Shown: in pieces, positions 1 through 46,056 of the stretch
How the letters are laid out: every line of letters begins with the position of its first letter
How positions within the stretch are numbered: the first letter of the stretch is position 1
Assembly: GCA_049999805.1 (NCBI GenBank)
Contig: JBNGIO010003970.1
Coordinates: 1-64,000, forward strand
Length of the DNA: 64,000 nt
DNA from: Folioceros fuciformis
Lineage: Eukaryota
Reading direction: 5' to 3'
Notes under the pieces: generated by a model
Told to the model about the DNA's origin: nothing
Seen by the model: the letters and a program-made list of their open reading frames with translations, nothing else
Database searches by the model: none
Translations under genes and position numbers: made by a program

Positions 1-177
1 GCGCCGATCTACTGGTGCACCTAGACTCGAAAACGTTATTTTCAATCAAGAAAACTTCCTTAATATACTCACTTAACAGTAGGAGTGTGTCGGTCTACCA
101 GCACACGTGGACTCGAAAACTTTATTTTCAGGCGCAGCCGAGATGCAAGAGTGCGTAGGTAGACCGATGCACCTAGG
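1..177. repeat. Three degenerate copies of a palindromic core (consensus GAGTGCGCCGGT-AG/CT-ACCGGCGCACTC); same family as the 14.0-14.4 kb and 23.9-24.1 kb arrays
   Basis: gcgccgatctactggtgcac (1-20), ggagtgtgtcggtctaccagcacac (~81-105), gagtgcgtaggtagaccgatgcac (~149-172). Confidence 0.7.
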
Positions 178-724
178 GTATAGGAGTATCCTATTGTTGT
201 CTTTTCTACATCGAGCTTTTTGTTTCCTTGTGTTATTGATGTAACGAACACTTGTTTGGTTAACTACAAAAACTTGGAGATACTTCAAATGTGTCCTAGG
301 TAGACGATACGAAAGACCATAGATTGAAGGATGTGGGTGTAGTCATAGATTTAGAGGCAAACCTTGAAGAACTTGTGTTTGTGTGGGAGGGCACTATGGG
401 ATGAGTGACTGTGTATAGTGGTTTTTAGAAATGATGTCCACCTATGGCTAAATATCAAACACATTAAGTGTATTTCAAAAAGTCATTGAATCAATAAATC
501 ACCATATGTTTTGCCATTATTGTTGGGTGAATGCGCCGATCTCACTGTACCTTGTGTGGTGCTGCAATCATGTAGTTGAAGGAGGGGACCCTCCTCCCTC
601 TTATCTTCTCCCTTCCTCATCTTCAATTCCATTAAGATACTCAACGGGTACCTGCATGCTGGTGTACTCCCGCTTTGCCCTATGCGAGAGGTTGGGCACT
701 AGTATGCTCGCGTACTCTGGGGGC

Positions 725-1040
725 TCTTTGCTGGACGCTGGGCACCAACATGCTAGTGTACTCCCTCTCCTCCCTGTGCTGGACGCTGGGCACCAACATG
801 CTAGTATACTCCCTCTCCTCCCTATGCTCAACTCTGGGCACCGACATGCTAATATACTCCCTCTCCTCCCTATGTTGGAGGTTGGACACCAACATGCTTA
901 TTTACTCCCTCTCCTCCCTATGCTGGAGGTTGGATACCAACATGCTTATTTACTCCCTCTCCTCCCTATGCTGGAGGTTGGANNNNNNNNNNCTATGCTG
1001 GAGGTTGGACACCAACATGCTTATTTACTCCCTCTCCTCA
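725..1040. repeat. 48-bp minisatellite, about 6 visible units, collapsed at an assembly gap
   Basis: Unit ~ctatgctggaggttggacaccaacatgcttatttactccctctcctcc; 16-aa periodicity in the ORF track; N run at 983-992. Confidence 0.9.
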
Positions 1041-7421: not shown

Positions 7422-8505
7422 CGCGCCAACGGTTATCGGTTTTATCTAACTTAGCAAATTCCTCTGTCCAGCATGCGGGGCGGGGGCCTGATCTCAGGTC
7501 TCATGCATTTTTGCTGATGACCGCCAGTTGTACTTTATAATCTTGATATAAATCAACAGTGCATTGCAAGTGCTGTCACTACATGTCTACATGCCCAGTC
7601 TGTATCGAAAGGGCAAACAGTGACCTCTTGACCTGAGCGATGTCTCATCTTTAGCGGTTTTAGTCGTATGTTGGTCTTTCATTGGGGTCGACAACTAACT
7701 AATGAATTTAATATAATTTACATTGTCTTCGCATCAGTATCAGCAAGAGTGTCATTACCGAGGTCGAACATCGTCATTGATTGATTACTACAAGATCAGA
7801 TTCCTTTGGATTCAATTCATTTGTTGGTGGCAACAGGTCAATTGTCCATCCTAACCCTCACGCATTTTACAATAAAAAAATCGAACCGAGGTAACCATGT
7901 CCCCGGTAAACAATGACGGTCGCCGCCGGGGCCCACCTAGACTAGCAGAACCGTAGCCCTTTGGGGTCGACGACAATTCATATACCAAAGATCCGGACTC
8001 CCTTCGGCAGACCAGAACAGACTCCGAATCGCCGTCCAACAACGAGTTCACCTCAAGCCTGAGAACCAGCAAGAAAAGGCCCTGGTGGGGCCCGAGCTCC
8101 TGCATCAGACACGTCCGTGGACCAGCCCCATCTTAGCAGGATGGGAAGCTCCTCCACCTTTTCTATGCTCAACTGTACGCTCCCAGACCGGTCCTCATTA
8201 CAGGACGTGCCAAAATGGCAAGGCAGCGCCTCAGGCAAAAGTGAAGAAATGTAGATACAGTAAAAACTGGACGGGCAAGGTTCAGAGCCAAGCCTGAGAA
8301 GCCCTGCGCCGTGACAAGGTCCCGTGTGATGTCACATTTTGAACCAACGTTGGGTCCACGCTATGTCCGCCTTGAAAAGCCCTAAAGATATCAACGTGTC
8401 AGTCACGTTTCTGCTAAGATATCCAAACGGCACACTAAATCCTGAAACGAATGCGTCTAGCACCCTCACTCAATTCGGGCAAAGCAACAGAAGTCCAACA
8501 AGAAG

Positions 8506-10508
8506 CTACATCACCTCATTAAGCAAATCTGAAGGGCCACGAGGCTCCCACTGGGTTTCTCCTGTGCCCAACTCTGAGCTGAGAGTGACTCCCTCCATTG
8601 GATCGAAGAGGCTTCCTGACTGTTCATGTGGTCGCAATCTCTTCAATGATACTGGACTCTGCATCTCAGCAAGCCTTTGGACAATGCAGTTGACAGAGTC
8701 TGCTTGAATGGTTTCATCTCTTAAACCCATTCTGCGCCTTTTACTCCCAACGGACGCTGCCATCCCTGTTATACAAGAGTACGCATAAACCCCGAAGTGA
8801 CACAATTGCATCTTCAGCATGAGCTTTCGGATGTGGAAAATGACTGGCAAACATACCTGGGAGGACAGAAATCCTGGAACCAACCCCGGAGCTTCCCCCT
8901 GATTCCCCCACTCTATATCCAGGGACAAAAACCACCTGAGACTTGCATTCATCAAGTCCAGAGCTTGTCCCTTTTCTGCAATGCAGCACGTCAAAACTTG
9001 TCAAGCTATTCATTCCCTAATCGCTTATACTAGTCAGAAAGGACTGAAAATTCTCAGCGCCCCTCATTCAAGATGTCAGTGCATCTCGAAGTGTGGAAAG
9101 CGGACAATACTGACAACAGTGAGAAGGAACTGGAGAGGAGAAGTGCAAAGGCTGTTGGTGGATTACCTGTACATGCTATCCACAAAGTCATCTATAAGGC
9201 ATGGCCAGGCACCTGCAACAGCCAACAAGGACCAGCACCCAGTAGAGACAGATTCACGATGACAAGTCAGATATGAAAACTGGCTTGTCAGAGGACAATC
9301 CGGCGATGACCAGCACCCCTTCTGACCTTCTGGATCATAGTTACTCAGGTCTTCATGAACACTGCGGCTGAACTCCAACAGTTGCCTCCAAGTATCCTCT
9401 GATATAGCATATCGTTGGTGCGCCTGTTCTGTGAACCGTCAAAAATCTTTCATAATGCAAGGCATTGGACACAAAGCTGTGGACTGGCATGACTAAGATA
9501 AAAGAGACCATGAAAAGATTACCTGCACAAAAGCACACCACTGATCCAGCAACCTGAACCGTCCTGCTAAAGAAAGCCTCCAAGCTTCCACAGCAGTCCT
9601 CACACCTGTGGACAAAAGACACTACCAAAGCTCATCAACAGAGTTAATCAATTGCAAGATGAATGGTCCAAGAACCCCAGGGGTCTTCAGAATTCAACAA
9701 AGAATTTTTGAACCACTACCTAGATTCTTCTGCCCGCTTTCCCGACAGATGAAGAAGACGAAACGGTAGAAAATATTGAAATTACGTGTATCAAACAGCT
9801 GCACAAGCAAATGTACATACATGTACATCACCCTTATTAGACAAAAGATGCCGACTACGCATGAATGCTCTCTACACCTACCGGCACTTGCAGATTGGAT
9901 TTGAGAAGTGGCAGACCCTCTAGGGCTGCTTGCCTGGGTTATTGCCACAAACAGGTCAGAAGCACTAGAAGCATCAGATCAGAGTAGTGTTACTCATGTA
10001 ACTGCAGCAAGACATTGGACCTCTAAAACTTAGAAAAAGCAATAAGCTGGCGCATTTTCAGAAAAATCACAATGACATTGAAAGTCATTTCACTGCTCGG
10101 AAAGGGCAGGCACAAGGTGCCTCAAACCTATATTCCAAATCAATCCCTTCCTCATGAATTTCAGAGCATTAGTACTGCAGGGCAACGGGAGGAGTACCCG
10201 TTGAGAGATTCATTTTCAGCGAATTCAGCGAGAGTGGCGAGTCGCTGTTTGATCTTCCCGGGATTTTCCTCAGCCACCACTATATCTGCAATTCAGGATG
10301 ACAACCCTGTGATTCACCCCCTCAACATTGCATTCAACTAATGATTGGTCACCCGACCACTTGCAATGACCACAGAGCGCGGAACATTGATTGGCAAAGA
10401 ATCAGATCAGCATACAACTTCCAGACCTGCAAATTCAGTATAAATTTCCCATAATCCGGCATCTCTACTGGGCCTGAGAAGGGAGGGAGAAGCTGCCAAG
10501 GGCAGCAT
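8506..10508 (-). CDS. AAR3: DCN1-like (defective in cullin neddylation) protein, AAR3 type, multi-exon
   Basis: Spliced peptides LWEIYTEF; FNIFYRFVFFICRESGQKNL; AVEAWRLSLAGRFRLLDQWCAFV; ISEDTWRQLLEFSRSVHEDLSNYDPEG; AWPCLIDDFVDSMYR match the cullin-binding (PONY) domain; last exon contains GSKRRR. Confidence 0.85.
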
Positions 10509-11990: not shown

Positions 11991-12049
11991 TATGGTGAGA
12001 CGACTTCCTCCTATGGCGGTTCCCTCTAGCACTTGCTACTGTCGGGATT

Positions 12050-12800
12050 GCTATGGCCCACCCCCTATTCTTGGACAACGCATCTCCATGGAAAATGTGT
12101 TGCGTAACCTATGATGGCCAAATGAACGATAAGTCCACATCGTCTGCTGGAAATGCGCAATGTCTCCTTGTATTTACTAGGTCGAAGCCCACAAATGTTA
12201 GGCGTATTGATGGATTGCGGCGCCTTAGATTACACTCATACCACCTAACTTTTAGAACCACCAGCTTGAACCCCCCTTGGAAACGCACTTGCAAAATTTC
12301 ACTCACAATTTCGTGGTAGGTGCATCGCACACCATCTGCCATCATGTACTTTGTGAGGACGCCACTATCTTGAGTGGTACGGACATTAGCATGAGGTACG
12401 GACATTAGCACGAGGTATGGACATGGCGTTCATTGTCTACTACCAAAGTTTGGAAGTGTCTGCCCCCGATTATCATATGGCAAAATGAGATCCCCACCAA
12501 GTCAGGGCCATCCATTATAGTAGTGACATCATTGGACAATTTAAGGAATTGCTCCCATAGCCCGGCTTCATGGCCCATATGCATCCAACAGCAGAAGTAG
12601 GCTATGTGGTTTTCCCTTAGGCATGTTGTACATTCGGCCTCATACATCTTCACGTTGTGGAGAACAAAGTTGTGCACGTGGTGCAACTCTGTTGTAGTGA
12701 AGAGGTATGGACATCCACTGCCTAAGGGCTCTCCATTGTGATTGATATCACCTTTTTGGGCCTAGAGGTGTGTTGACTTGGGGTACCTCTCTTGGAGAAA
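12050..12800 (-). mobile_element. CACTA/EnSpm transposase relic (C-terminal DUF4216-like region)
   Basis: DGP...IIGGRHFQT...TTQDSGV...YHEIVSEILQVRF...VVLKVRWYE...GFDLVNT...SFIWPS*VTQ, in the order typical of EnSpm TnpD C-termini; frameshifted by a short tandem duplication near 12380-12425. Confidence 0.8.
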
Positions 12801-14014
12801 TGTCTTGGCATATTGATTGCTTGTTGCTTCACATATGCCTCTACGATACTCCCCTCAGGTTTGCTACATTGCCTCATACTTTTTTTTTGTTACCATGAAA
12901 CCGCTGAATAGGGTACATCCACCTCTAAGGCCGAGTAGTGAGAGCCCAAGTAGTGAGGTGCCAACCAGCCAGCACCGTGCCTCCCCTTTTTACCAAGCCC
13001 TAAGAGCCCAAGCAAGAAGGGCGCCGGCTGACTGATACCCCTCAAATTTTATTTTATTGCTGCAATAAGCATTTTTATGGACTTCTTTAAACGTAACAAC
13101 TATTGTTTCCATCCTGTTTGTGCAGCAATTAAAACTCATGGACAAACTCTCTTGTCTCCCTAAAAGCTTCTAGCATTTTATATACTAAGTGAACAATTGG
13201 AAGGACCTTGAGCTTCATCGCAAAGGGTTGTATGTGTTTTGGCCTAAGAAATTCAAAGTGTGCTTCAGCGGGATGGACTACATGAAAGAAAACATAGTTC
13301 TATTAAAAGATGGCAGGAAGAGAAGAAGTGCAACTAAAGCAATGGAGAAAGGACAAACCACCCTAGCCTCTTCTTGAGGAACAAGAGAGAAAGAAGCTAA
13401 CAATTTGGAGGACTTGTAAGTTGTACAAGAAGTAGATAGCTTGGATTAAGAAGCTAAGAACCTTTTACTGAATGTGACTGTTGTCCTAGATTTTATGACT
13501 GCAAAGAATGAAGATGTGTATCGTTTATAGATCAATAACTAGATACATTTTGTGCTTCGTATGAATATATAAGGTATAGGGGTGATGTTTTCAGCAATCA
13601 AAAGAGATCTATTCACATGCATCATGTGACTTTAATTTTACTCTCCAACTAAAGTTTTCTGGTAAAGTGGAACATGAAACCAAGCGTTGGCTACTCGGCA
13701 CCCTAACTACTAATAAACTTTTCCATAGAATCGTATATCATTTTCACCAATATCTCTAGTTGCTCACCAGGGTGTCAAGTTTTGGAGTATGATTGGTTTC
13801 ATATACAGTGTGCCAACATCCTCCAAATGAACAATAGGACTTGCCACCCATCAAAGGGGGGCAATGGTTTTGGATGCTTTGTGTGGAGCTGATTTTGTCA
13901 AGAAGGTCTACCCCCTTTAAAAGAAGGACACAATATTCCCCCCCCCCCCCCCTCTTTCAAATTACTATTGTTTTATCTCTATCTGGTCTTGTGAGGCTAG
14001 TGCACAAGTGACAA

Positions 14015-14390
14015 TGACTTGCTTTCGACCGGCGCACTCTAGCTGATTTTTTGATAGACACCATTTTCCGGAGCATAGTGGCAAAATGGCCGCAGTGCTC
14101 CGATCTACGAGGCACTCCCACCATTTTGTCTCACTGTAGTGTAGATTGGGGAGGGATGCGCCGTTAGACTGGTGCACTCGAGGGTCTATGTTCGGAATGC
14201 GCATTTTTTCGGCACATTATGTAAAAGTGGTCGGAGTGCACCAGTTGCCCGAGGCACTTGCGCCAACCTATAGGGCTTCCGTATAGATTAGGGAGGGGGT
14301 GTGCTAGTAGACCGGCGCACTCCTGCCAGTTTGTTTGCCTTTGGATAATATTTGGGGGGAGTGCACCGGTAGACCAGCGCACTCTAGCCA
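14015..14390. repeat. Array of ~6 palindromic cores spaced ~60-80 bp, upstream of MTase copy 1
   Basis: e.g. gggagtgcaccggtagaccagcgcactc (~14357-14384) and ggtgtgctagtagaccggcgcactcc (~14298-14324); alternate spacers resemble each other. Confidence 0.8.
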
Positions 14391-14490
14391 TTGGAACTGA
14401 TTTTTTGCTCACTTAGGCTGGAATGGCATAGTTCATTGTTTGTGATTCTGCTTTTTGTGTGAAATTTCTTACTGAATTGCTTTTTGGCAG

Positions 14491-15680
14491 AAACTAGCGG
14501 ACATCACAGACGTAGAAGCGTTGCCAAAACCTTTGCATGATTATGTGTACTTTGCTAGAAACTTGGAAGCGCATGGAAGAAGAAATGCAAAGACTCGAAG
14601 ATGCAGATATGGATGCAAGATTATCGGAGTTCAGAGTCCCAAACAGTAACAATAAGACCAAATATCAAGTTATCAATTGAAACACTATGGAGATGAAAGC
14701 ATTTCTGGTAAAACAACCGTATACTCTTTGATTCACAGATTTACCTCACGAACTCCTACGACATGAATACGACATTCAACTAACAAGTGAAAAGCTTAAG
14801 GACATGATTCGAGAGTTTTCAGAATGCACCAGCAGTAAGGTGTACAGGTTGGTTCTCATGCACAGAATGGATCTGATTACACAGGCTAGGGAAGCACTTC
14901 GGCCATGGTGCAAGAAGGGGACCATTTAGACCTTAGTGTGGAAGAAGACTGACATATCCCCCAACGCAAGCGCATTAGAGACTGTCGAGTCTTTAACCAT
15001 TGGAAGTGTAGTTCACTCTAAAGCTTAAGATACAAAAGCTTCATTATTCGCGAATCAAGGATTCTTCCACGAGTTATAAGGCATGGAGCTGTGGTGAAGA
15101 AACATTTGTTCCACTCAGCAGATTCTCTAATCATCTCGTCGTATGAGAAGCCCCTTGGTTTAATGGGTATGTTGGTGAATTTGTTCTCCATTGAAGGGCA
15201 CTAGGTAGTGGATGCTTGCACAGGATCTGGGTCATTTTTAGAGTCTGCAATTTGAAGAGGAAGGCATGTTGTCGCAATGGATTTCGACATGAGATGCACC
15301 ACTTACATCATGCAACGGGTGAAAAGCATAGAGTCTTTGCTAGACTCTGATGAGAAGATCAGCACATAACTGTTCTCGCATGGCCTCGCAAAGGTTTGGG
15401 CCAAAGAAGTTTGCGTGGATGATAGTGTTGGCCATCGGATGCAAGTATTCAGTTTGTTGGGAAAAAAGGAGAGATTCTTTCACAATTAGACGACAAATCA
15501 GCAGAAGACCTTTATGCTATGACTGTATGGATGAGAATGGGACAATTCCGCCTCAGACTGTGGATGACCAGCATTTCTTTGTTCTAGATGTGAAGGGAGA
15601 TGACTTCGGAGACATTTAGGGCCAGCGCCTTAAAGACGTAGATGTAGTTGTCAATTCCGAGGCCAATCAAGATGTTCGTG
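14491..15680 (+). pseudogene. Beta-class N4-cytosine/N6-adenine DNA methyltransferase-like pseudogene, copy 1 (terminal exon)
   Basis: After acceptor tttttggcag: KLADITDVEALPKPLHDYVYF...YTL*FTDLPH (motif IV-like, 14738)...LVWKKT...YEKPLGLMGMLVNLFSIEGH*VVDACTGSGSFLESAI*RGRHVVAMD (SAM motif I at 15211); several stops and frameshifts. Confidence 0.8.
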
Positions 15681-15694
15681 TTTTTGTTTAGAGG

Positions 15695-18600
15695 TGTTGG
15701 TGAGGAAAGTGGAAGCGGATGGTTGTGGACTCCACATGCTGAGCAGACCCTGGGAAATAATAGGTTTTCTTTTTTTCTTTTTTTGATCTGGGAGTGAGTG
15801 CTGTAGAGGAAAGGTTGGGAGATTAGGTTAGAACAATAGTTAGATTTATGGTGAGTCGATAGGGTAGGTAGGTTGTGTGGTAGATAGGACACGGGCTCTC
15901 GTTCCTCAGGGTAAGGTAACGGAGGAATAGGGAACCCTAGGACGTCGTGGAAGGCGAGCCGGGGGTCCTCTGGCTGGTGCTGGTGGAAGCTGGGGGATAG
16001 GTATGGAGGTGCCTAGACCTGCCTTGGGCTCTACCCCAGGTACACTAGGGGCCGAGGATACTAAGATCAGGCAGCCATGCAGGAGGTGATTGGACTCCGT
16101 GGGTGCATCAAATCCGAAAGAGGCAGGCAACCTGGCCAGCTGCAGGCTGGCATCCCCGCAGCAGTGGAGGTAGGCCAGATGGGGGTAGGGCGCTCAGTGG
16201 CCTGTGGCAGGTCGCCGGGGCAGTCTATGATAGGCCGGTGGCCAGTTGGTGGTCTAGCGAGCTGCTAAGGAGCCTAGCCAGCAGCCCAGCGTCTTAGACA
16301 GCCAATAGCATCAGCTGCGCCAGGCAGCCAGGCTGGCTCGCTGGCCGGATCTGGGAGGCAAGCATGGGCAGCCAGCATGCTGGTTGCAAGCAGGCAATCG
16401 GGATGAACCCAAACTGGCCAGGCGGAGTGCAGGCAGCCGGTTGGGTGGCCGGGGTGGTCGGAGCTGGAGCAGGAAGGCGGTCTGGGTGGCTGGCCGGGCC
16501 AGCAGCAGCCCGATTGGCGGCCTGGCTATCAACGGTGAGGCTGCTGAGGAGCCGTCGGGCGACCCAGCAGATCAAGCCGAAGCCAGGAGCAGGCCAGGAA
16601 GGCTGGGTGGCCGGATTTGGACCAGCAGCACAGGCGGGCCAGGGCGACGTTGAATCCTGGCGGGCATGGATAGGACTGGTGGCTGGACCTAGCGGCGGGG
16701 CAAAGGAGGACAAGGCGGATCCCGCCAGCCGACTGCAGGCAAGCAGTCCAGCACGGGTTGCAGGCAGGCAGCCGGGGCTGATCTAGGCTTGTCAAAGCCG
16801 GGGCCAGATCTGGAAGCCGGCAGGTGGCAGCCAAATCCAGGCTAGGTAGGCGGCTGTTTGGTGTCGGGGCGGCCAGGTTGGTCGGCAAGGTAGGGTGTAG
16901 GTGGGCACTGCCAGAGCGAGGCCACCGCATGGCGGCTAGTGACTAGCTAGGTGGGGAGGGCCTGCTGGTTGGCAGACGAAGCCAGAAGGTTGGTTGGGAT
17001 AGGATCCCAAAGCCAAGCAGCGGCCTAGCTGGCTGTCTTAGCCAGGCAGTCGCCCGGCCTGCTAGCAGCCGGGGCGAATCCAGGCTGATCGGGCTGGTAG
17101 ATGGATCTGGCTGGGCAGCCAGGCAATCGCCTGGCCGGGGTGGATCCGGGTAGCCAGGCCTACTGGCTGGACCCTGGCCAGTCGGCGACCTGGCTGAATC
17201 GGGGCCAAAGCTGCCAGGCTGCAAGGGGCGAGTTGTCCCGGGATGGCTGCGGCTGGTCGTGGAGGCAGCCGGGCAGGCCAGGCTCAGAGCCAGGATGGGC
17301 CGGATCCTGGCCGGCAGGGTGCGCCGGGGCATGGCAGGCTAGGGCAGGCCTGAAGTAGGCCATGTCGGTGCAGGCTGGGAGCTGGATTCGGGCTAAGGCC
17401 CGGCGGGATCCAACTGGCTGGCCAGGGTGGATCTGAGCCAGGCTAGAGCCATGAGGAGGCCGAGGGCCGGTTGGTTGGTTGGCTGGCTGCTAAGGAGCCT
17501 AGCCAGCAACCCAGCCCGGCCCAGCAACAGGCAGCCCCGCAAGCGGGCCGTCTGGCCAGGTCAAGGAGGGCAGGCGGCTTGGCAGGTGGTATGGCGGGCT
17601 ACACAGGCCGCTGGGTTGGATTCGGGCAGGCAGCCTGGCTGGTCGGCAGGTAGGCGACTTGGCACCGGCGCAGGCAAGTAGCCGGCAGGTGGCAAGTTGG
17701 CTGGCTGGCGGGCCGATCCTGGAGGCCCGGCTAGCTGAGGCGCATTAGGGCCGAACCCTGGTAGGTGGGGAGAGTACTGGTTATTGGACCTGAGCGCCAG
17801 GGTCAGAGCCCAGCATAGGGATGGTTGGGCATAGATGTGCAGGGCCCCATGCCCGCTACCAGAGTTGAGCGGGGCGAGGTAGGCCGCTGGTCGCGGCTGG
17901 CTAGCAGGGGGCTGGGCCGGATCCAGATGGTGGATCCAGGCCGGCTGGCTAGTCGGCTCCAGTCGGCTTGGCTGGATAGGCGACTGGCAAGGCTGCTAAG
18001 GAGCAACCAAGCTTGCGGGCTGCCTGCAAGCTGAGGAGCAGCCAGGCCTTGCAGGTAGCCTGGCAAGGGGCTGGCTCAATAGAGGCCGGCGGCTGAGCAG
18101 CAACCAGGCAACCTAGAAGCCGGCGGGCGACCCAACAGCCCAGAGGTTGGCGGATCGAGGCAGCCAGGAGGCCAGATCGACAGATAGGCCTAGCTGGGTC
18201 AGCGAGGCGGCCTGGCAATGGATCTAAGCTAGCAGCTAGGCAGGCGAATCGAAGCAGAAGCCATTCAAGATGGGGCCGGATTCAGTCGCCCAGTATCGGA
18301 TAAAAGGGGGGTGGTTGAGCTGGAGGGGTCGCGGCCGTTTTTTCTTAGATTTCTTGGTGGCTGGACAGAAGGCAAAAAGCGGAGTCACAAAACCACTGGC
18401 CGCTGCCTCTAAATTATCCTCAGCCTTGCTCAGCTCGGGGACCTTATGGCTGGGAAGCACACTCTGGCTGGCCTCTAGTAGCATCTGCAGCAACAACAGA
18501 CAAGCTTGGTGAAGGTCTCGTCTGGGCGAGGTCAGATGGGCAAGGGGGTGGCGTTGCACCCAGGTGGCATCCAGGTCAGCCGACAGCTAATAGGGTGCAT

Positions 18601-20365
18601 GATGGCCGGATCTAGCAAGCCAAACAGACTGGCGGTGGGCTGGTTGGAACTTGGCTGAAGCATTTGGGCTGGCAGGCAAATCAAGGGAGGCTGGTGGAGA
18701 AAAGGTTGCTCGTCTCGGGGACTGAGGGTGTGCTGAGGCACCTGACTGGAATCAAATAAGGAATAAGAGGTGAGATCGAGGAAGCCTCAAGAAGTTGATA
18801 CCCTGTCACCTAGGGTCGTGGATGGAGACGTAGGAGGCGGTCCAGTGGAGAGACGAGCAAGGACTGCTGGGGATTTGACTGGGGTGATGCATTCCCTATA
18901 CCATGGCCAGCCAGTGGCCGTAATTAGCATACGGCTTGCCATCTGCGGGTAGTGGGTGGGAACCGACTCTCTACCGCAGGCGAAGAGCCTGATGCTAATT
19001 ACAACGATGATGGGTGGTGGTTGCCATTCCAGGACGCAGCGCCATGGGGCCATCCGCTCAAGGGCATCAACCCAACAGACCCTTCCAGCAGCTTGGAAGG
19101 TGGCCAGCCAAGGACGCAAGTGGCACATGGCGTTCCATCCATTAGTAGCAACCCTAGTTGCTTGTAGGCCGAAGGTGGTAGCATAGGGGTGCTACTAGTG
19201 GTGGGAAGCCCAGTGATGGTTATGTTGACAGGAATAGTGGAATGTCACCTCCACCTTGCAAGGTGCTCCTCCAGGGTGCTAGATGGTGATTTGCCGGGGC
19301 ATGAATTTTGACTGGCAGGATGGAGGGAAGGGCTTGAAGGAGGAAGACTCCAAAGAATGCAGGATGAGCTGATCCGGGAGAGGGGTGAGGTGTGTTGAGA
19401 AGCCTAGGTTAGGTCTAGGTCAGACCTAGGTCGGGTTAGGTCTAGGTCAGACCTAGGTCGGGTTAGGTCTAGGTCAGACCTAGGTCGGGTTAGGTCTAGG
19501 TCAGACCTAGGTCGGAATAGGTCTAGGCCAGACCTAGGACGGGTTAGGTCTAGGCCAGACCTAGGCCGGGTTAGGTCTAGGTCAGATCTAGGTCAGGTTA
19601 GGTCTAGGTTAGACTTAGGTCGGGTTAGGTCTAGGTTAGACCTAGGTCAGGTTTAGGTTAGAACGGGGCGTAGGATGGTTTAGGTCAGAGACAGAGATGG
19701 TTAGGTAGTTGACTCAGGTTAACCCTAGTAGAAAGAGGTGGAGGGCTAGGCAGTATAAGAGGGGGGAGACCTACCATTGAGAGGGGCTGTCTACGGTGCG
19801 ATTTCCCTGGACCTTGTGTGCAAAACTCTTGGCTTAGGGCGCTGAGCCGGTTGAGACTGAACCAAGGTCCTGATTTCCCTTGTCACTAGGGGAATGTGGA
19901 GAATCCCAAGACTGCCAAGATCCGTATGGCCGGATCCGCAAGGGCTGAATGATTCGCAGGCTAGCTGAAGTGAAGTGACAGGACCGTGAGCCAGGAGGGC
20001 TATTTAGTCCTAGCATCTACACTACGCTTGAAGGCTGTAAGGAGTGAAGCCGTTGTGTCCCAACTTCCAGGGGATAGCTGAAGCAAAGAGAGGAAGAGTT
20101 GGAGTGAAGTGCCTAGAAGTGAAGAGTGAGTTGCTGATGTGCAGGAGTGTGTGCTGAAGTGAAGGGAGAAGGGTTGAAGTGAAGAAGGAAGGACTGAAGT
20201 GGGGATCATGAAAAGTTGAAGAATTGAAGATCTAGAATGTGAGTTGTGTGAGTTGATTTGAAGATAGGCTAGGCTTCTGACCCCCTTGTTGTGTGCGTGT
20301 GGACAGGTCTATAGACCGGCTGATAGGTAGAAGCGTGAGTAGATAGCTGTGGGTGTTCCTTGACA
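15695..20365. mobile_element. Unclassified GC-rich repetitive element or relic with internal low-complexity repeats
   Basis: Recurrent gctgctaaggagc/ggctggccgg motifs over 15.9-18.7 kb; CTAG enrichment; 27-bp tandem array; no recognisable protein; approximate TG...CA ends without a clear TSD. Confidence 0.45.
19403..19660. repeat. 27-bp tandem repeat (~9 copies) ggttaggtctaggtcagacctaggtcg
   Basis: Units start at 19407, 19434, 19461 and so on; each contains a ctaggtc/gacctag inverted pair. Confidence 0.95.
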
Positions 20366-22355
20366 CTAGTTCACTCCCTTGGGAGCGAATCATAAGACTG
20401 CAATGACAATAAGGGGAGGTGTGGTCCTTTGATGTTCCTTGGATGCAAAAAATCACTCCACAATGGTGTATTATGATCATGAACATATTTGATTATGTCG
20501 TCTTTGAATATACGGTATGTAGATAAATGGTTTCCTCTCCATCAAACATAAACTTTAGTGCACCGATACACCGGCCCACTGAAAGTAAGATTCTCTTTTT
20601 TCTTAAACTTTTGGAGTTTGAAGGCCTCAGGTCCCACCTTGTCGTGGGCTTGAAGCGAATATACGGATATCGATTATGTCCAACTCACGTCAATATAAGT
20701 GGTTTTGGAAAAAGGCTAAAATATAGATATGTGACTAGGATGACATAAACTCAAATTTGCACCAAACGGGCTTTGTGGAATACGATTCTTAGGCACATAC
20801 CTTGTTTATTATTCTTTGGACCTAAAGTCTAGACAATAGTCATAAAAGCTAAGTATATCCTATCTATTTTATCGACCCCTAAGGTTCCGATTGTCCATAG
20901 ATGTTGATCTCAGAAACTCGGTGAGGCAGCAGTCAACTAGTAGACTTGAATGGGCTGCCAAAGTGGTAGGAGTGTTAGCTACTAGTGGGCTTGGGACCAT
21001 GGCGATGGGGGGTGGCATTGGTGAAGTGGGCCCAAGAGGACACTACTACAATTATCAAGTAATATTACGGTGTTTTGTTACATGATATGTTACGGTATCC
21101 AAGAAGTGTTATACCGCTAGTTACTGGTAGGGGTTTGGCCATGCAGGCCACCTATTGTAACAATAGCTGTAACACTTTCGACGTCGACCCTGCTCCTTCA
21201 TTTGAATGCCCTCCGCCTGCTAGACGCACGGTGCTCGCCGTGCCCATGCATTTATCGTATGACGTGGGGAGCGACGCCGAGGGTGCCATTTATGTTTTCC
21301 CAAGTGTTGTGGTTGGTCAGTTGATTGTAACGCCACTAGACCTTTTAGCACGCATACCAACTAACAGTACATATTATGACCACAAAGCCCCTGATGTCGC
21401 TTCAACACATTACATAAAAGGCTCATACTTGTAGACAGTGCAAGGGGTTTAGCCCTCCCTCAGACAAACAATGTGCGGCGTCCAAGAACAGTGATGTTCC
21501 GCAAAGGAAAAAGAAGCTAGCTACCCTTCTTATCATTCCTGCACGTTCACAATCTTCATTCAATATCAGCGCCTCATACATGCAATGTATGGCCTTCTTT
21601 GGGATCCAAATATCTACCCTCAAATACTTCACCTACCAGAGGTTGTGCAAGGGTTCTATGTAGAAGAGGTACCCATGGGATCGGCCACCAATCATCCCAT
21701 ACAAAAGTCCTTCGCAAAGGGCAATGCATGCCTCCACTATGCATTCAATTGCCTCTACCAACTGGAAATGAACTTCCTCATTCATAGCAAAGTCTGCGTA
21801 TGCCACGAAATGGTCCAACCTATTAATAGTGAACAACAAATGAGTTTTGTGTCTGAAGAAGTTTGCAGTGTCCAATTTCCTTTGCACAATTGTCAGCATT
21901 CCACAAAGGTTGCCTATGGATGTGAACATTGGCTTCAAGGCATGCTCGAGACCTGTCCACAAAGGTTGTCTACAAGGGTCCCACACGAGTCAGAGCTCCC
22001 TCACATAAACGTGACCTCCCCATGTCCACTTGTGGTAATGTACCTCCTCTTGCAAGGACAATCAAAGGTTTCCACATATATGCGCCTCCTTGTTGTGTGC
22101 AGTTATTCCTCGGCCAAATTGTGGATTGGTTTGCTCTACCTAAACATAAAACAAGTGCTCGTCAAGATATGTTGTGCAGTACAGCTTTTCCCTTGATGTC
22201 TCCATGAGAACAACCATCATGTTCTTTAGCCACACTATTCGCAGCTCCTAAATTGCCTTATGCATCGATTGTGCGAGTTCCCTTGCTCAGCCTAGCATCG
22301 ACAAGCCTAGTCTCTCACTACAAGCACCCCAAACCTTGACCTGATCATCAACAAC

Positions 22356-25342
22356 ATGGACAAGGAGTGGTTTTTAGTTCAGGATGAAAAACCAAGGGAT
22401 TACTCTACGTCTTGGGTTCCCGTGTTGTCATTGTGGATTAATGGCTTCAAGGACGAGAGGAATATGAGGCCGTCAGGGCAGGCTGGATTTTATGTGCTTC
22501 AGTGGATGGAGTGGAGGACGAAACTCACATAATTTTTTGCTCACAAGACATCCACCAAGCCACATTATAGACGATTACGATATGCACTCCATGATTCTTT
22601 TGAAAATTTCAAAGGTTGTTCCATGTAGATGCGAGCCTAGATGGATGAAAAGTGCGCTTTGAGGCGCTATTCAAGTTCAAGACGTGAGTATTTTATGTCG
22701 GCATAGTTAGTTAGATAAGTTCACCCTAATCTCAGTTAATTGAAGCTTTGAATACAATACAAAATGTTCACTATAAAGCCGAACCCTAATCACTTGTTTG
22801 CTGATGCTTACAAGGCCGAGGGGCAATTCACGAGGACTGTGTTGCGTTACATTGCAGAGGTGTCATCAAGAACCGGGCATTGCAAGCTAGGATTGGAGAG
22901 GACCGGGAGCAATAGAACCTTCAAGTTCCTAGTGCGGTGCAAAGAGGGAGAGAGCGCAGCGCAAGGATCACTTCCCAAACCATGCCACAGATGCAACCGG
23001 AACTATCTGAAGACAAGATCCTAATGTCGTCAGGACCAAAGGAAGAGGAGGTGGAGAAGGGGATAGGGTCTTTAGCAGAAGATAGTTTTGATGAAGCTTT
23101 GGGAGGCGGATAGTTTGGCAATGAAGAGGAAGACTCTAATGAGTCTCCCGCGGAATCACAACTCCAAAACGAAGACAGAAGGAGGTGCGCCGGCCAGACG
23201 ACGCACCCACCAAGGAGTCTCGGAAGCCTATGGTGGCATCTCCTGTTAAATCTAGGCGCAAAATTGCAGGTAGGTGGGAACAAGACTAGCAAATCGATTG
23301 TCATCCAATTCACGTTTGGGCTCTAACATTCATTGTCTTCTATAGCAGAGAATGCCTTAGTGCTCACGAAGAAACGCAAACAGCCGGCCACAAAGACTAG
23401 TGACGTGACTCTAACCCAGCAAAAGAAACGAGGGAAACACGCAGTTGTGGATTACGTGGAACCTCCAAAACCTGTGGACACTGATGCCGAAAGGCTAGAG
23501 CGTATCTCGCAAGACTAGGTCTACCTCAATTGTGTCAAGAAGAAAGCTTATGCCAAATAAATAAGGTCCACTATATTTGATTTGCATGTAGACACCTTAC
23601 ACCCTTCTTTGTTTCTCACAGCAGATGGTCAAATACGAAAGGTTGACAAAGCCTCGATGAAATCATTTGTAAGACAAATGAAGTATGGTCCAGTGAAAGA
23701 GGGAGTGTTGCCATTACTCTGTATGATTGATCCTGCACAAGCTAAAAAGAATGAAAGCACACAACGGATGAACAGTTGATGAAATTTCAACCCGCGTTTG
23801 CGAAAGTGGTAAGCCTGACATTTCATATCACCCCTTAATTAGAGCTTTGTGGTTTGTGTTGTTTAACAGTTTTGATGATGTTCAATTCAATGTGGAAGGG
23901 CGTTGGTAGAACGGCGCCCTACAGGGTGCTTTGTGGGAGTGCGCCGGTCTACCAGCGCACTCCAGGGTTTTGTGTGGGAGGGCGTCGGTCTACCAGCGCA
24001 CTCCAGGGTTTTGTGTGGGTGGGCGCCGATAGGCTGGCGCACTCTAGGGTCTTGTGTGGGAGTTTGCTAGTAGACCGGCACACTCCCAATTGATATTGTT
24101 TGTTTTTTGTTGTTTGTTTATTGATACTGTTTGTTTTTTTTCAGAAACTAGGAGACTTTGTCAACCTTGAATTGCTACCTAAGCCATTCTAGGATTTTGT
24201 TTACTTTGCTTGCAATTGGAAATGGATGGAAGAAGAAAAACAGAAGCTTGCGAGTGCAGATCTGGACGTTGGTCTTTGTGAATTTAGAGTTTTGAATGCG
24301 AATGAGAAGGTGAAGTATTAGGTAATCCAACGGAATGCACTGGAAATGAAAGCGTTTCTAGCTAAGCGTCCATACACAATGCTTTTCGCGGACTTGCCAA
24401 GAGGTCTCTAGAAATAGGAGTACGACTAATAACTAAAAAAAAAGAAAGAGCTGGAGGAAGTATTAAGCAGCTTCAATGAATGTACAAGTAGCACAATGAA
24501 AACCGGATTGTGTTCATGCATGGAGTTGATGGAATAACATAAGCGTTGGAAACATTGTGTCCATGGTGCAAGAAGGGCACAATTCAGACATTGATATGGA
24601 AGAAGACTAACATTCCTCTGAATGCAGGTGCTATAGAGATAGTAGAATATCTCATATAGGGCAATGCTGTGAAAACGGAAACATCTGTGGGTAAGGCTCC
24701 TCTCTTTGCTGAACATGGGTTTCTTCTACCTAGGGACGTTATGGGACTATTGTTAAGAAACACTTGTTTCACTTGGCTGATTCAATGGTCGTGTCGCCAT
24801 ATCACAAGGCTTTGGGCTTATTGTCGATGCTCGTACACATGTTTTCAACAGATGGAGATTGGGTAGTAGATGCATTTGCTGGTTTAGGTTCCTTTCTTCA
24901 AGCTGCCACTCAATGAGGCCAAAATGTGGTTGCGATTGACGTAGATGTTAGGTGCATTATGTATATGTAGCAAAGAGTGCATGGCATTAGCAACCTTCCA
25001 GACACGGATGAGGAAGTGACGACAAAGACGTTTCCAAGTGGTCATCGAAGTTCTATGCTAAGGAGGTGTGTGCTGACAGGAATATAGAGAGGAGAATGCA
25101 AGTATACAGCCTGCTTGGGAAAAAGGGAGAACGTCTACAACTGGCAACTGATAGACCAGCAGAGGAGCTTTATGTGACCACAATTTGGGATGAAAACTGT
25201 ACACTTCCACCCCAAACTGTGGACGCTCTAGAGTTTTCGCTGTTGGAAGTTGGAGGCGATGACTTCGCGGAAACAGAGGACCAACATTTGAAGGACGTAG
25301 ATGTCATAGTGGACTCTTGAAGCAAACGTTGAAGGACATTAA
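22356..25342 (+). pseudogene. Multi-exon beta-class N4C/N6A DNA methyltransferase-like pseudogene, copy 2
   Basis: Terminal exon from 24145 (tttttcag|AAACTAG, same phase as copy 1): KLGDFVNLELLPKPF*DFVYF...YTMLFADLPR (24391)...LIWKKT...YHKALGLLSMLVHMFSTDGDWVVDAFAGLGSFLQAATQ*GQNVVAID (24869); C-terminus DENCTLPPQTVD...DDF...LKDVDV matches copy 1. The upstream exons (~22356-23810) are tentative. Confidence 0.75.
23898..24088. repeat. Tandem array of ~5 x 41-bp units with the palindromic core, inside the intron before the MTase exon
   Basis: gtgcgccggtctaccagcgcactccagggttttgtgtggga and variants; the centre flips between TCTAC and GTAGA. Confidence 0.9.
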
Positions 25343-26356: not shown

Positions 26357-26488
26357 GATTCAATCCCATCTGCTTTCATTTTTCCATGTTTTCAGGCGCG
26401 ATTCAATCCTCATCTCCTTTCATAGCTCCTTGCTATCAGGCCCGATTCAATCCCTGTTTGCTTTCATTGCTCCATGTTGTCAGGCGCG
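26357..26488. repeat. ~43-bp tandem repeat, 3 copies
   Basis: gattcaatcc...ctttcat...tcaggc[gc]cg three times. Confidence 0.75.
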
Positions 26489-28934
26489 TATGCGAAGGAG
26501 GTTTGAATGGCTAACAGCCGCAAAACGTCCCATGAAAGCATTCCTCGCGTAGTATCCACGCTTAGAAGTTTGGGCTGGTGTGTGTCAACGGTGCCCTAGC
26601 AGAAGCCCTCATTGGTGGGTAGGTTGGGAAGCCGAAGCTAAAACTCAAGCTATGGGCAAAGGGGAAAAGTGTAAGAAACGTTTTTGTAATGGCCTTCATG
26701 TTACACATGTATAACAATGTTGGTGGATTGACAATCGTAACAACGATGGGAAATTATGTTACACTGAGCCTTAATCTTGTTATAGACATGCGTAATAATA
26801 AGAGCGGTTCCCTGCAGTAGTGGGAGACTCTTCTCTTCTGATGGCAATTGGTAAGTTTTTTGTCCTCGACTGTGGTAGGTCTAAGGGCGATAAGGGTCTA
26901 GTCAGTGAGGGGGCTCGACTTTGAATCGATCCAACCAAATTGGAAGTTACAGTCTGAGGGTTTGGTGAAAGATCCACGGCCACATCGCCTGCTACAATGA
27001 CCTCTTCGACAAACTCCTAGAGTACTCGCAATACTACTCCATGGTAAAAGGTGAAGCTGTCGTCCAACTGTTGGATTGCATCTATAACCATTCTCCAGAG
27101 AGTTCCATACTCCGCTCTTCATCACGACTTCAACAAGTCATCATGGTGGGCCGCGGCTACAGCTACATACCTCCAGAGATCCTTGAGTGTTATAAAGGTG
27201 GCTCGGGCCTCTTCTCATAGCTGCAATGTGGTAACCACCTCCACCTGCATCTTGAGGAGCCCGACCTTAGAGTAGATGCTTTGGCTTCGAGCTCCCTTAC
27301 CTTGACCTAGAGCTCGCTGTTCTCCGCCCTGAGCTTTTGCATGCGCTCCAGCAACCCATTTCGCTCATTAGTCCATAGCTCCCCATGATTGTAGAGGTTC
27401 TCACGCAGTAGATTTATTTCGGTGTGCAAGGTTCGAATCTCATGTTGGACTATCTTCTCCACAACCTCGGAGTTGCGTAGTCTCACTCGAAATTATTGTG
27501 TTTGTCGGGGTGAATTCGTTCCCTTCCAAGTGAGCTCCTTCTTGGTATCGAGGGCTTGGTTCTTTCCCTTCATATTGATTGCAGTCCGCCAGATGTTGCT
27601 TGCAGGCTTTCTGCATGTTCGTCTCCCTCTTCATCCATATCATGTGTTCCTCCATATGAGCTGCCTCCATGGAGGATTCTCTGGTGGTCTCCAGCCTGCT
27701 GCACTGGGCTTGGGCTTCCTCAAGTTGCCATGCTAAGGCCGCGGTCTCCTTCGCTCTCTTTGAGCTTTGTTCCTTAAGCTTTGAGAGTAGCAAAGTTGAC
27801 CTTTGTGTCTGAGGGATAGTGACCTCTGTGGCCACTATCCCTCGGGTCGCCTACATCGCTCCCTCTGAGGTGGCTCCAAAGTCAAAATGATGGTTCGCAG
27901 GTGATCGGGCCCTCCCAAATGACGTCCAAATGGCCCGCCTCATCGCCTTTGGATCTATGATGCCCCCTTCGATTAAGTCCTCTAGGACAATAGACCAAGG
28001 CAGCGTCCACCTTGGATCGTGTTCCTCCTCTACGGGCCATGGGCTAGTAGCTAGCATGACTCCAGCCGGGGGTGGATAGGGGGAGTAGGGCCCTCTCCCC
28101 TTCTTTCTCCCATGTGGGGACAAGAGCCTCTTTACTCTGGACGGCCCTATCCCGTGCTTCTCGTTCTAATCCGATTGTGCCGCCATCTGGACCAACTCCA
28201 TTCGTTTGGTCTGCTCTTTGTTCATTAGAGTAGGTAGTAGGAGGGGAGACCGAGAATATCTGTAGGAGGAATTGAAGTGTGTATACAATCTTGAATAGAG
28301 CGATTGGTTCCATATTTAGACACTTGTCTTGAAGACCCGCAAAACCTTATGGGACTCTCTTCAAAGACATCTAGGTAGCATGTCGTTGATATGTTGTGGA
28401 AATTACAAAGTATATATCGCATATTATCATATCACATTCATCAGGATATATCGGAGATAAGGTATGAGTTAATGAACCCGGCATAGTTCGAACTTTGGAA
28501 ATTTGGAAACGGCCGCAAAACCAACACTTAAAATAAAAAAAGAAAATAAACATATCACTGGAGTCCGGCCGAAAGTCAAGTAAAAAGTTCAATAATTTGG
28601 CATCTACACCTTCTATCGAAGTTGAAGTGTGGAGTTCGTATAAAGATCGTCTTCTTGATTTGTTTGACCGAATCATCGAAGAGAAGGAAAGGGTTATTCA
28701 AAGTTTAGCAAGGATTGTGCACGACCTTCAATTGAACCTCATCCAAGCTGAAGGCGTAAGAACTTTATGTGGGCTTTGGGAATATCTATAGGAGGAATTG
28801 AAGTGTTTATACAATCTTGAACAGAGTCCTACCAAGAAGGAGAGCCCTAGCTTATATCCAAACCTTTGCTGGCTAGATGGCTAGACTATCATTATTTTAC
28901 ACAAGGGCATATGGAGCGGCACCCTAAACCCTTA

Positions 28935-29160
28935 GCAACACTTACAAAAAGAGCTCTTTATCCAAAAGTACTTACAAAAAGAATTAGGAACACTTACAAA
29001 AAGGGCTCTTTATTTAACAATACTTACAATAAGAGTCAACAATACTTAGAAAAAGAGCCAACAATACTTACAAAAAGAGCTCTTTATTCAACAATACTTA
29101 TAAAAAGAGTCAACAATACTTAAAAAAAACTCTTTATTCAACAATACTCACAAAAGGAGT
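28935..29160. repeat. A-rich degenerate minisatellite (caacaatacttacaaaaagag variants)
   Basis: About 9 repeats of a 20-30 nt unit are visible. Confidence 0.8.
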
Positions 29161-30056
29161 ATAACGATATCCATCCAACATGTTACTATGTACTTCATTC
29201 TCTCTTACCCTCCACACCTATCTTTTCCCTATAGTTCTTAAGGAGGATAAGATAATCACTTCTTGTTTGCCCTTCGCTCTTTCTTACCCTCCACACCTCT
29301 TTTCCTTGTAGTTCTTAAGTAAGATGAGACAATCACTCTTTGTTTGTCTCTCTCAAGGCCTTTGCCCTAGCCAATTATATTCTAGAGCTCAACTACTACT
29401 AAAGCTGGAAATCATAAACACCACTCATCTCAAAGTACTAGTGCTATTATAACATGATTCTTCATAAAGCTTATGCTTAGAACAAGTAACTTGTTTCCAA
29501 AGGCAACAATAAGCATACACAAGGTAGCTCGAGATTTAAGTTTCATCATATTTTACTTATGCCATTACCATAGCAGTCCTTTATCACCCATCACTTTTAC
29601 TGAAAAAGATACTTTTTTTTGATATATTCATTAAATTCTGATTTGAGAAGTAAGTGAAATTCTTACACCATTTTTATCTGTGACGATTTATTCTTAATGA
29701 CTATTTTTATCTGTGACGATTTATTCTTAATGAAGCATAGCGATTATGTTTTGACTTTTCTTTCATTAGAAAAAAAAAACAGCTGTGGACAGTAACCCTA
29801 ACTTATGGTTAGGAGTATTAGTCAGCTCTTCCGGCTCTAGTGCCGCTCTTGCGTACATAAATGTGAGTCCTGTAAACTCTCGTGAGCTGTGAGCATGAGC
29901 TGGGAGCCTCGTGTGTGGGGAGCTGAATTTCCCTCCTCGCTGGAATTGCTGGGTTTGGTCGAAGGGTTATTGAAGGCTGGATGCCTCATGTAAGTGACCC
30001 ATGATACAGGAAGTGTCGGATCACAACGCAACAACTCGTCACTCAGAACGACGAGG

Positions 30057-33733
<3,677 letters not shown>

Positions 33734-45841: not shown

Positions 45842-46056
45842 TCCTCCCGGAATTTGTTCCTGCCCACCACTCGCTCTGTCCCTGTACCTGCACCTGCTAC
45901 GCCCGCACCACCCACCACCTGCAGGGTGTAGACTGTTTACGAACAGTGTGCCTTGACACATTATACAGTTCCTTCCATGCGCACCCTAGCCCTAGGCTCC
46001 ACCACTCCGACCAACCAACCAACCAACCACCCAACCAACCGGGATTGATCAGAGTC

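What the first reader, a model, noticed from the sequence alone, without database searches (positions are those of the whole stretch)
14015..24088. Conserved ~28-bp palindrome arrays in the intron directly upstream of each MTase exon
Seen in sequence: the near-perfect inverted repeat GGGAGTGCGCCGGT(AG/CT)ACCGGCGCACTCCC occurs about 6 times at 14015-14390 with 30-50 nt spacers, and about 5 times at 23898-24088 as 41-bp units. Each array ends about 60-100 nt before the MTase acceptor. The core is conserved while spacer length and sequence differ between loci, and its orientation flips between units. Inference: this is a selected binding site for a dimeric element-encoded protein (parS-like or transposase subterminal-like), a methylation target, or an RNA hairpin array affecting splicing or siRNA production.
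Basis: partly seen in the sequence, partly recalled or inferred. Interest (0 to 1): 0.75.

Follow-up and report, generated by a model that had tools for sequence, protein, structure and literature searches.

The report
Palindrome arrays in ParB-methylase transposon relics
Rows of one 30-letter palindrome sit just before the methylase-like exon in several broken copies of a plant jumping-gene passenger gene, and are likely the docking sites for that gene's own bacterial-style ParB protein, an idea already proposed for algal transposons but untested.

Summary
The arrays are real but decayed. Only the consensus is a perfect palindrome; the nine full units differ from it at 2-8 of 28 positions, mostly C>T/G>A at CG/CHG. 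A matrix built from one array finds the other and two more sites; all four relics of the same gene family in the window have a unit 57-104 nt before their acceptor. Both arrays give the same 14-nt arm consensus although their exons are only 60% identical. Contigs of the same sample share the cores with unrelated spacers (periods often 62-63). The gene is a broken ParB-fold + beta-class DNA-methylase fusion with relatives in Chara, Riccia, Adiantum and Ginkgo; one copy lies beside a probable CACTA transposase relic. Best reading (0.6): parS-like binding sites for the gene's own dimeric protein. In this clade catalytic motif IV reads DLPR/DLPH, so methylation is doubtful; the unit that could be read carries only host CG/CHG methylation. 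The idea is in print for red-algal Plavaka elements and Ectocarpus Sola1, and earlier notes of this scan report it in other genomes. New variant of a known kind; binding untested; these copies are dead.

The parts
14012..14386 (.). Array 1: six decayed 30-bp palindrome units (half-site 14012, unit with 1-nt deletion near 14090, full units 14152, 14232, 14295, 14357); centre-to-centre 79, 61, 80, 63, 62
14491..15690 (+). Locus 1 last exon: broken beta-class N6/N4 methylase-like domain (about 10 stops, at least 3 frame changes; motif IV DLPH at 14738, motif I near 15205)
12020..12920 (-). Probable C-terminal relic of a CACTA/EnSpm transposase, divergent from the methylase gene
   Evidence: DUF4218 E 0.002, below the curated cut-off; further likeness read by eye (recalled family motifs)
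13015..13044 (.). Single divergent palindrome unit, 81 nt before the acceptor of a further family relic
13126..13230 (+). Fourth relic of the same exon start, without a recognisable methylase domain
   Evidence: 0 of 2000 shuffles reach the score against the locus-2 exon start
23123..23770 (+). Locus 2 upstream exons: N-terminal region and first half of the ParB/Srx fold (matches residues up to about 174 of full-length relative P0060); about 280 following residues are missing
   Evidence: (iE 4e-4 window-wide)
23809..24144 (+). 336-nt GT..AG phase-0 intron (predicted) that holds array 2
   Evidence: flanking peptides align at the expected place in 4 of 11 relatives, individually weak
23894..24087 (.). 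Array 2: five units, 41-nt period, 11-nt spacers in constant orientation while the core centre flips
24145..25320 (+). Locus 2 last exon: broken methylase-like domain (about 11 stops, at least 3 frame changes; motif IV DLPR at 24391, motif I near 24863)
1..176 (.). Array 0: three units (first cut by the window edge, 81, 147), 93 nt before a decayed acceptor
267..390 (+). Internally deleted relic: start of the exon joined to its end, methylase domain gone
   Evidence: end matches loci 1 and 2 in 0 of 2000 shuffles; start match alone not significant
20554..20583 (.). Isolated unit (3 mismatches in the 22 core positions), beside the edge of a high-copy repeat, possibly near the left end of element 2
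23181..23210 (.). Isolated weaker unit inside the low-complexity N-terminal region of locus 2

Best explanation
The arrays are decayed copies of one 30-bp palindrome lying before the last exon of a broken transposon passenger gene, and they likely served as parS-like docking sites for that gene's own ParB-fold/methylase-like protein. Shown: the motif, its tie to the exon, its conservation over spacers, the gene's family and decay, and host-type CG/CHG methylation on one unit. Predicted from models of relatives: ParB/Srx N-terminal fold, helical middle part, beta-class methylase fold. Inferred: a dimer would read the two 14-bp arms with the helical middle part, load on several sites at once (often about 4, 6 or 7 helical turns apart) and so mark out the element's own copies, to keep them expressed or to regulate its own gene, as VANC does for VANDAL. 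Because motif IV is DLPR in this clade, the protein more likely acts by binding than by writing 6mA/4mC. The copies here are dead: the sites have been eroding by 5mC deamination since silencing.
For: Leave-one-array-out matrices recover the other arrays at 0.0-0.1 expected per window (unit 147: 0.43; half-site 14012 not recovered). 4 of 4 family exon starts have a unit 57-104 nt upstream; no hit above 15 bits beyond 24.1 kb. Arm consensus identical in arrays 1 and 2 while their exons are 60% identical (698/1167); unit cores 71% versus 10-nt flanks 35% across loci. 29 of 45 core changes are C>T/G>A, 28 of the 32 at CG/CHG, so the ancestors were closer to perfect. In same-sample contigs summed depth is 103-301 on the last two cores, 21 on the spacer between, 8-17 on the upstream part; 72-82% of laid contigs run on in unlike sequence, and 6 contigs join two cores across unrelated spacers, periods 45, 62, 62, 62, 63, 73. 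Full-length relative P0060: ParB-like PadC Z 8.8, rmsd 3.0, 98 aligned; KorB Z 7.4, rmsd 14.4; CcrM Z 22.8, rmsd 2.9; locus 2 matches its first ParB half. Precedent: inverted-repeat arrays beside ParB-like PAG3 in Plavaka elements (10.1101/2025.02.11.637652); ParB-methylase in Sola1-1_Ec32 (PMC12477816); VANC binds intronic tandem motifs (PMC5735166).
Against: No binding data exist. No intact copy was seen: the helical middle part and the GGxH motif are missing from every window copy. The site (30 bp) is about twice a canonical 16-bp parS (recalled), no ParA is present, and relatives have GGxH where ParB has an arginine motif, so clamp-like CTP use is unproven. The KorB match has rmsd 14.4 and Z under 8. 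Phasing is weak: p about 0.01 for all 14 periods, which are not independent, 0.16 for the 10 distinct values, 0.2 for the window alone. Shared position before one exon is also expected from common descent. A few units lie elsewhere (1255, 20554, 23181). The element type of locus 2 is unidentified, so I could not show that the motif follows the gene rather than the transposase.
Confidence: 0.6

Rival explanations
1. The palindromes are binding sites for the transposase or a TnpA-like helper of the CACTA element (subterminal-repeat analogue), and lie in the methylase gene only because its intron is free space.
For: Probable CACTA transposase relic beside locus 1; TNPA binds subterminal repeats (PMC2613891 passages); single units at 20554 and 1255 and a degenerate 48-bp array at 640-1046 could be near element ends.
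Against: The strong arrays are internal and fixed 57-104 nt before one acceptor in 4 of 4 relics; the En-1 motif is 12 bp; no element ends were identified.
Confidence: 0.12
2. The array is a neutral intronic minisatellite with a palindromic unit, inherited by all copies from one ancestor and kept symmetric by arm-to-arm repair.
For: Array 2 is a plain 41-bp tandem; position and decay are both explained by descent; in-place flips of the core show that arms recombine.
Against: Identical arm consensus between loci whose exons differ by 40% and whose spacers are unrelated in length and sequence; further unrelated spacers in other contigs around the same core, several of the same length.
Confidence: 0.1
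3. The palindrome is the methylation target of an active element-encoded 6mA/4mC enzyme that writes a protective mark there and nearby.
For: Beta-class fold and motif I are kept; many relatives keep an aromatic residue in motif IV (DFPY, DIPY, DAPY); TE-borne adenine methylases are reported (10.64898/2026.05.21.726589, passages).
Against: Motif IV is DLPR in locus 2 and in three stop-free relatives (P0001, P0003, P0011), DLPH in locus 1; such enzymes recognise 4-8 bp (recalled), not 30; in the one readable unit all 6 CHH cytosines were converted, though 6mA is invisible to that chemistry and the copy is dead.
Confidence: 0.1
4. The array works as RNA: hairpins in the intron that tune splicing of the last exon or feed small RNAs.
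For: Both introns fold better than shuffles (z -4.5 and -4.1); fixed distance to the acceptor; one symmetric T>G/A>C change in unit 23894.
Against: The z-scores follow from the palindromes themselves; sequence rather than mere pairing is conserved; 14-bp stems with a 2-nt centre are short for Dicer (recalled); units also occur outside introns.
Confidence: 0.08

Closest known systems
Plavaka (EnSpm/CACTA) elements of Bostrychia with PAG3 and adjacent inverted-repeat arrays (10.1101/2025.02.11.637652; section 8 read in full; supplements closed)
   Same: CACTA-superfamily context, ParB-like passenger gene, tandem arrays of inverted repeats beside it, same self-binding hypothesis, mostly degenerate copies.
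   Different: There ParB is fused to a 2OG oxygenase and the N6_N4 methylase is a separate SET-fused gene (PAG2); here ParB and methylase are one gene, in a land-plant-type genome, with the array inside the intron before the methylase exon.
Accessory gene of Sola1-1_Ec32, Ectocarpus (PMC12477816; passages; supplements not opened)
   Same: ParB-like + N4/N6 methylase fusion on the strand opposite the transposase, proposed to bind and modify its own element.
   Different: Sola1 element in a brown alga; the word 'palindrom' does not occur in the main text; no array is described in the passages seen.
VANDAL/VANC anti-silencing system, Arabidopsis (PMC5735166; passages)
   Same: Element-encoded protein binds motifs amplified as tandem repeats in introns and other non-coding parts of its own element.
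   Different: VANC motifs are 8-9 nt, non-palindromic and co-oriented; VANC is not described as a ParB or methylase; binding is proven there, untested here.
Bacterial ParB/parS and phage ParB-N6N4-methylase fusions (10.1101/2025.10.10.680097 and PMC4738411; passages)
   Same: ParB/Srx fold fused to PF01555; palindromic sites near the gene.
   Different: No ParA, 30-bp site, GGxH in place of the arginine motif, introns, eukaryotic transposon setting.

Membership tests
ParB/parS system | Clustered palindromic sites near the ParB gene | tested here: met
ParB/parS system | ParB/Srx N-terminal fold in the cognate protein | tested here: met
   Model of full-length relative P0060, residues 98-240: PadC Z 8.8, rmsd 3.0, 98 aligned, several other ParB/Srx rows; window holds only its first half
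ParB/parS system | Box II arginine motif for CTP binding | tested here: inconclusive
   Relatives read GGxH(S/N/Y) at the equivalent place; deleted in window copies; no ligand test
ParB/parS system | HTH DNA-binding domain after the fold | tested here: inconclusive
   Helical middle part; KorB Z 7.4, rmsd 14.4, 187 aligned; missing in the window
ParB/parS system | ParA partner and 16-bp site (canonical ParABS; site size recalled) | tested here: not met
   No ParA hit in six-frame Pfam scans of 7.1-14.0, 20.5-22.8 and 25.3-28.3 kb; site is 30 bp
ParB/parS system | Direct sequence-specific binding | not testable with these tools
   needs EMSA or DAP-seq
Beta-class N6-A/N4-C DNA methyltransferase (PF01555) | Fold and motif order IV before I | tested here: met
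Beta-class N6-A/N4-C DNA methyltransferase (PF01555) | Catalytic motif IV (D/N/S)PP(Y/F/W) (recalled) | tested here: not met
   DLPR (locus 2; P0001, P0003, P0011), DLPH (locus 1)
Beta-class N6-A/N4-C DNA methyltransferase (PF01555) | Intact reading frame in these copies | tested here: not met
   about 10-11 stops and at least 3 frame changes each
CACTA/EnSpm transposon | TnpD-type transposase | tested here: inconclusive
   DUF4218 18.4 bits against cut-off 27 at 12810-12890; nothing identified at locus 2
CACTA/EnSpm transposon | CACTA terminal inverted repeats with 3-bp target duplication | tested here: inconclusive
   No such pair among the 25 longest of 269 inverted repeats shown; copies are old and cut
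CACTA subterminal TnpA sites | Short repeats clustered at both element ends | tested here: not met
   main arrays are internal, before one acceptor
VANDAL/VANC | Motif amplified in tandem in non-coding parts of the element | tested here: met
VANDAL/VANC | Short, co-oriented, non-palindromic motif and a VANC protein | tested here: not met
   30-bp palindrome; the gene is a ParB-methylase

The most novel reading that the evidence does not exclude
Land-plant CACTA elements carry a working eukaryotic ParB/parS module: a nucleotide-gated ParB clamp loads at helically spaced 30-bp palindromes in its own last intron and spreads a methylase-derived, catalytically altered (DLPR) domain over the element to counter host 5mC silencing or to bring element ends together.
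Probability: 0.2. Interest if true: 0.85.

Novelty: new variant of a known kind. Interest (0 to 1): 0.45.

Why it matters
Only VANDAL elements are proven to bind and epigenetically protect their own sequence (as stated in 10.1101/2025.02.11.637652). The ParB-based version has been proposed for algae without a test. This window supplies a sharply defined 30-bp candidate site, conserved across subfamilies 40% diverged in coding sequence, so a simple binding assay becomes possible; a positive result would show a bacterial partition-type protein-site pair working in a plant nucleus, and a long, specific DNA-targeting module. The window's own copies are dead, and the same architecture has been noted many times in this scan, which limits the value of this locus.

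Tried and rejected
No genome is held, so no genome-wide motif scan. Word-indexed protein searches with broken frames found nothing. Locus searches with family proteins found no relatives in metagenome contigs (0 of 137 candidate stretches) or viral contigs (0 of 6). Motif scans: 0 loci in viral contigs; 11 loci in metagenome contigs, none with a methylase relative or an array, apparently bacterial operators or coding chance matches: rejected as unrelated. No RNA holder listed, so expression and small RNAs stay unchecked. The 21.0-22.4 kb stretch could not be identified; ideas of Sola, Mutator or KDZ from recalled motifs were not supported. An inverted 30-nt likeness of 1121-1150 to the methylase exon is within chance and had no profile support. 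RNA folding z-scores were set aside as a direct result of the palindromes. Helical phasing kept only as weak. No complex prediction was sent: the tool does not score DNA partners. By-sequence look-ups in earlier notes were blank.
Full report
Observation. The quoted sequence matches the window only once within 3 mismatches, but a looser scan gives 10 matches at <=8 mismatches against 0.03 expected from 30 shuffles. Array 1 (14012-14386) has four full units, one with a 1-nt deletion and one half-site, spacers 32-50 nt; array 2 (23894-24087) has five units at a 41-nt period. The nine full units carry 2-8 mismatches of 28 and pair 7-12 of 14 arm positions. So the consensus is a perfect 30-bp palindrome with an AG/CT centre, and the copies are eroded. 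The centre flips while array-2 spacers keep their direction; I read this as inversion between arms, which is expected of any palindrome.

Cross-validation and extent. A matrix from array 2 alone finds the four full units of array 1, unit 81 and unit 13015 at <=0.1 expected per window (unit 147 at 0.43; the half-site is not recovered), and vice versa. It also finds 690, 1255, 20554 and 23181. With all units in the matrix, 14 sites exceed 15 bits: 12 lie before an acceptor of the gene family (11 of them were in the training set), one inside locus 2's N-terminal region, one 0.85 kb after locus 0; none lies beyond 24.1 kb, where host genes dominate. Two more relics of the same exon turned up: 267-390 (exon start joined to exon end) and 13126-13230. 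Thus 4 of 4 exon starts have a unit 57, 81, 93 or 104 nt upstream.

Conservation. The exons of loci 1 and 2 are 60% identical in DNA (698 of 1167), yet pooled arms give the same 14-nt consensus for both arrays; cores average 71% identity across loci and 10-nt flanks 35%. Of 45 changes in the cores of 11 units, 29 are C>T or G>A, 28 of the 32 at CG/CHG: decay by 5mC deamination. Contigs of runs from one sample (X1, X2; possibly the source of the window, so other loci of the same genome, not independent samples) laid at 80% likeness give summed depth 103-118 and 115-301 on the last two cores of array 1, 21 on the spacer between and 8-17 on the upstream part up to 14278; 21 of 26 laid contigs in X1 fit only in part. 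Depth is no copy number, but it is far below the 1000-5600 of the repeat at 19.7-20.5 kb, so the motif does not behave like a high-copy dispersed repeat. Six contigs join two cores across unrelated spacers with periods 45, 62, 62, 62, 63, 73. Several others continue from the last core through the pyrimidine tract (depth 111-125), one at depth 63, a likely young subfamily. Phasing at 10.4-10.5 bp: p about 0.01 for all 14 periods, 0.003-0.005 for the six contig periods, 0.2 for the eight window periods, 0.16 for the ten distinct values; kin share periods, so this is weak.

The gene. Both exons hit PF01555 and are broken. A search of 1.84 billion proteins gave 49 hits; of 10 looked up, 5 clusters carried names: Ginkgo, Riccia, Adiantum, Chara and a sea cucumber. 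Twenty more relatives came from Chara (18) and JGI contigs (2). A model of P0001 matches beta-class methylases; a model of the full-length P0060 (mean pLDDT 73) matches CcrM (Z 22.8), and in its N-terminal part PadC (Z 8.8, rmsd 3.0, 98 aligned), KorB (Z 7.4, rmsd 14.4), a Pnob8 ParB-N domain and sulfiredoxins. A family profile maps locus 2 to residues up to 174 and from 477 of P0060: the second half of the ParB fold and the helical middle part are deleted. The intron 23809-24144 is GT..AG in phase 0, and the peptide before the donor aligns just before the expected junction in 4 of 11 relatives (p 0.09-0.21 each). At locus 1 a similar scrap aligns in 4 of 11 (p 0.02-0.68) and I saw no clear donor. 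Motif IV is DLPR in locus 2 and in P0001, P0003, P0011, DLPH in locus 1, against DFPY/DIPY/DAPY in most relatives; the aromatic residue that stacks on the flipped base (recalled) is absent in this clade.

Element and host. A DUF4218 stretch on the minus strand (E 0.002, below cut-off) and recalled TnpD-like motifs at 12020-12920 point to a CACTA relic divergent from locus 1. Ends were not found, and the DNA upstream of locus 2 stayed unidentified. Run X3 looks like a cytosine-converted library (inferred from C>T 335, G>A 219; library not on record). In eight of its contigs the number of differences nearly equals the number of CHH sites. One contig (depth 5) covers unit 14357: 21 of 22 CHH converted and 0 of 6 CG/CHG over 14354-14444; within the unit 6 of 6 and 0 of 4. 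So the unit carries host CG/CHG methylation and no sign of other protected cytosines; adenine marks cannot be seen this way. The host genes and this pattern suggest a land plant, likely seed-free (inference).

Mechanism. A long symmetric site whose sequence, not just pairing, is kept across diverged subfamilies while spacers turn over is what a dimeric binding protein leaves. The gene that holds the sites encodes a ParB-fold protein with a helical middle part. I therefore commit to parS-like self-binding sites (0.6). The steps from binding to effect (anti-silencing or autoregulation) are inferred from VANC and from the algal proposals. Rivals: transposase/TnpA sites 0.12, neutral descent 0.1, methylation target 0.1, RNA hairpins 0.08.

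What is known. Section 8 of the Bostrychia preprint (read in full; passages; supplements closed and may describe the arrays further) reports inverted-repeat arrays beside ParB-like PAG3 in Plavaka elements and proposes self-binding. [quoted passage not shown] PMC5735166, PMC2613891, PMC4738411, 10.1101/2025.10.10.680097 and 10.64898/2026.05.21.726589 were seen as passages; the Marchantia 4mC preprint only in a listing. Eight searches showed no paper on land-plant ParB-methylase elements with intronic palindromes; the library lacks most subscription journals. Earlier notes of this scan (127 findings hold the words, in at least 2 other genomes; unchecked AI notes) describe the same architecture, mostly with the array in a first intron; they pointed me to four of the papers and to the phasing test, and are not counted as support. 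Here the array lies before the last, methylase exon.

Verdict. Real feature, partly overstated, part of a recurring transposon passenger module: new variant of a known kind, interest 0.45.

Noticed in passing
window 632-1046: 48-bp minisatellite whose unit resembles a strongly deaminated version of the palindrome (12-16 mismatches of 28, about half C>T/G>A); may be an older array or chance.
   Followed up: partly
window 15750-20544: GC-rich repeat block between loci 1 and 2 with a 27-bp tandem (19407-19658); 19700-20544 has contig depth 1000-5600 and is also covered in run X4: a high-copy element, class not determined.
   Followed up: no
window 21000-22400: Stretch with coding-like signal in two in-register opposite frames, including a 233-codon stop-free frame at 21495-22196; unidentified.
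   Followed up: partly
window 26900-28200 (-): Decayed coiled-coil-rich reading frame, probably another mobile-element relic; 44-bp and 52-bp tandems nearby (26357-26488, 28932-29160).
   Followed up: no
window 5008-7134, 9300-9450, 29994-31930, 43724-45985, 62959-63810: Host genes with long open frames: PCF11-like, a Cullin_binding (DCN1-like) exon, AAA ATPase (NVL-like), DEAD-box helicase, TFIIS-like; names other than the Pfam hit are recalled.
   Followed up: no
protein P0050: A ParB-methylase relative in the sea cucumber Holothuria leucospilota with motif IV DMPQ: the family is not confined to plants and algae.
   Followed up: no
L010:7254-7283 and 7998-8027: Two perfect 30-bp palindromes at the start and end of a ParA-like gene in a metagenome contig; likely an operator pair, unrelated to the window.
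   Followed up: partly
L003:7997 and L008:615: Palindromes directly upstream of GntR-like regulator genes (names recalled); likely operators.
   Followed up: no
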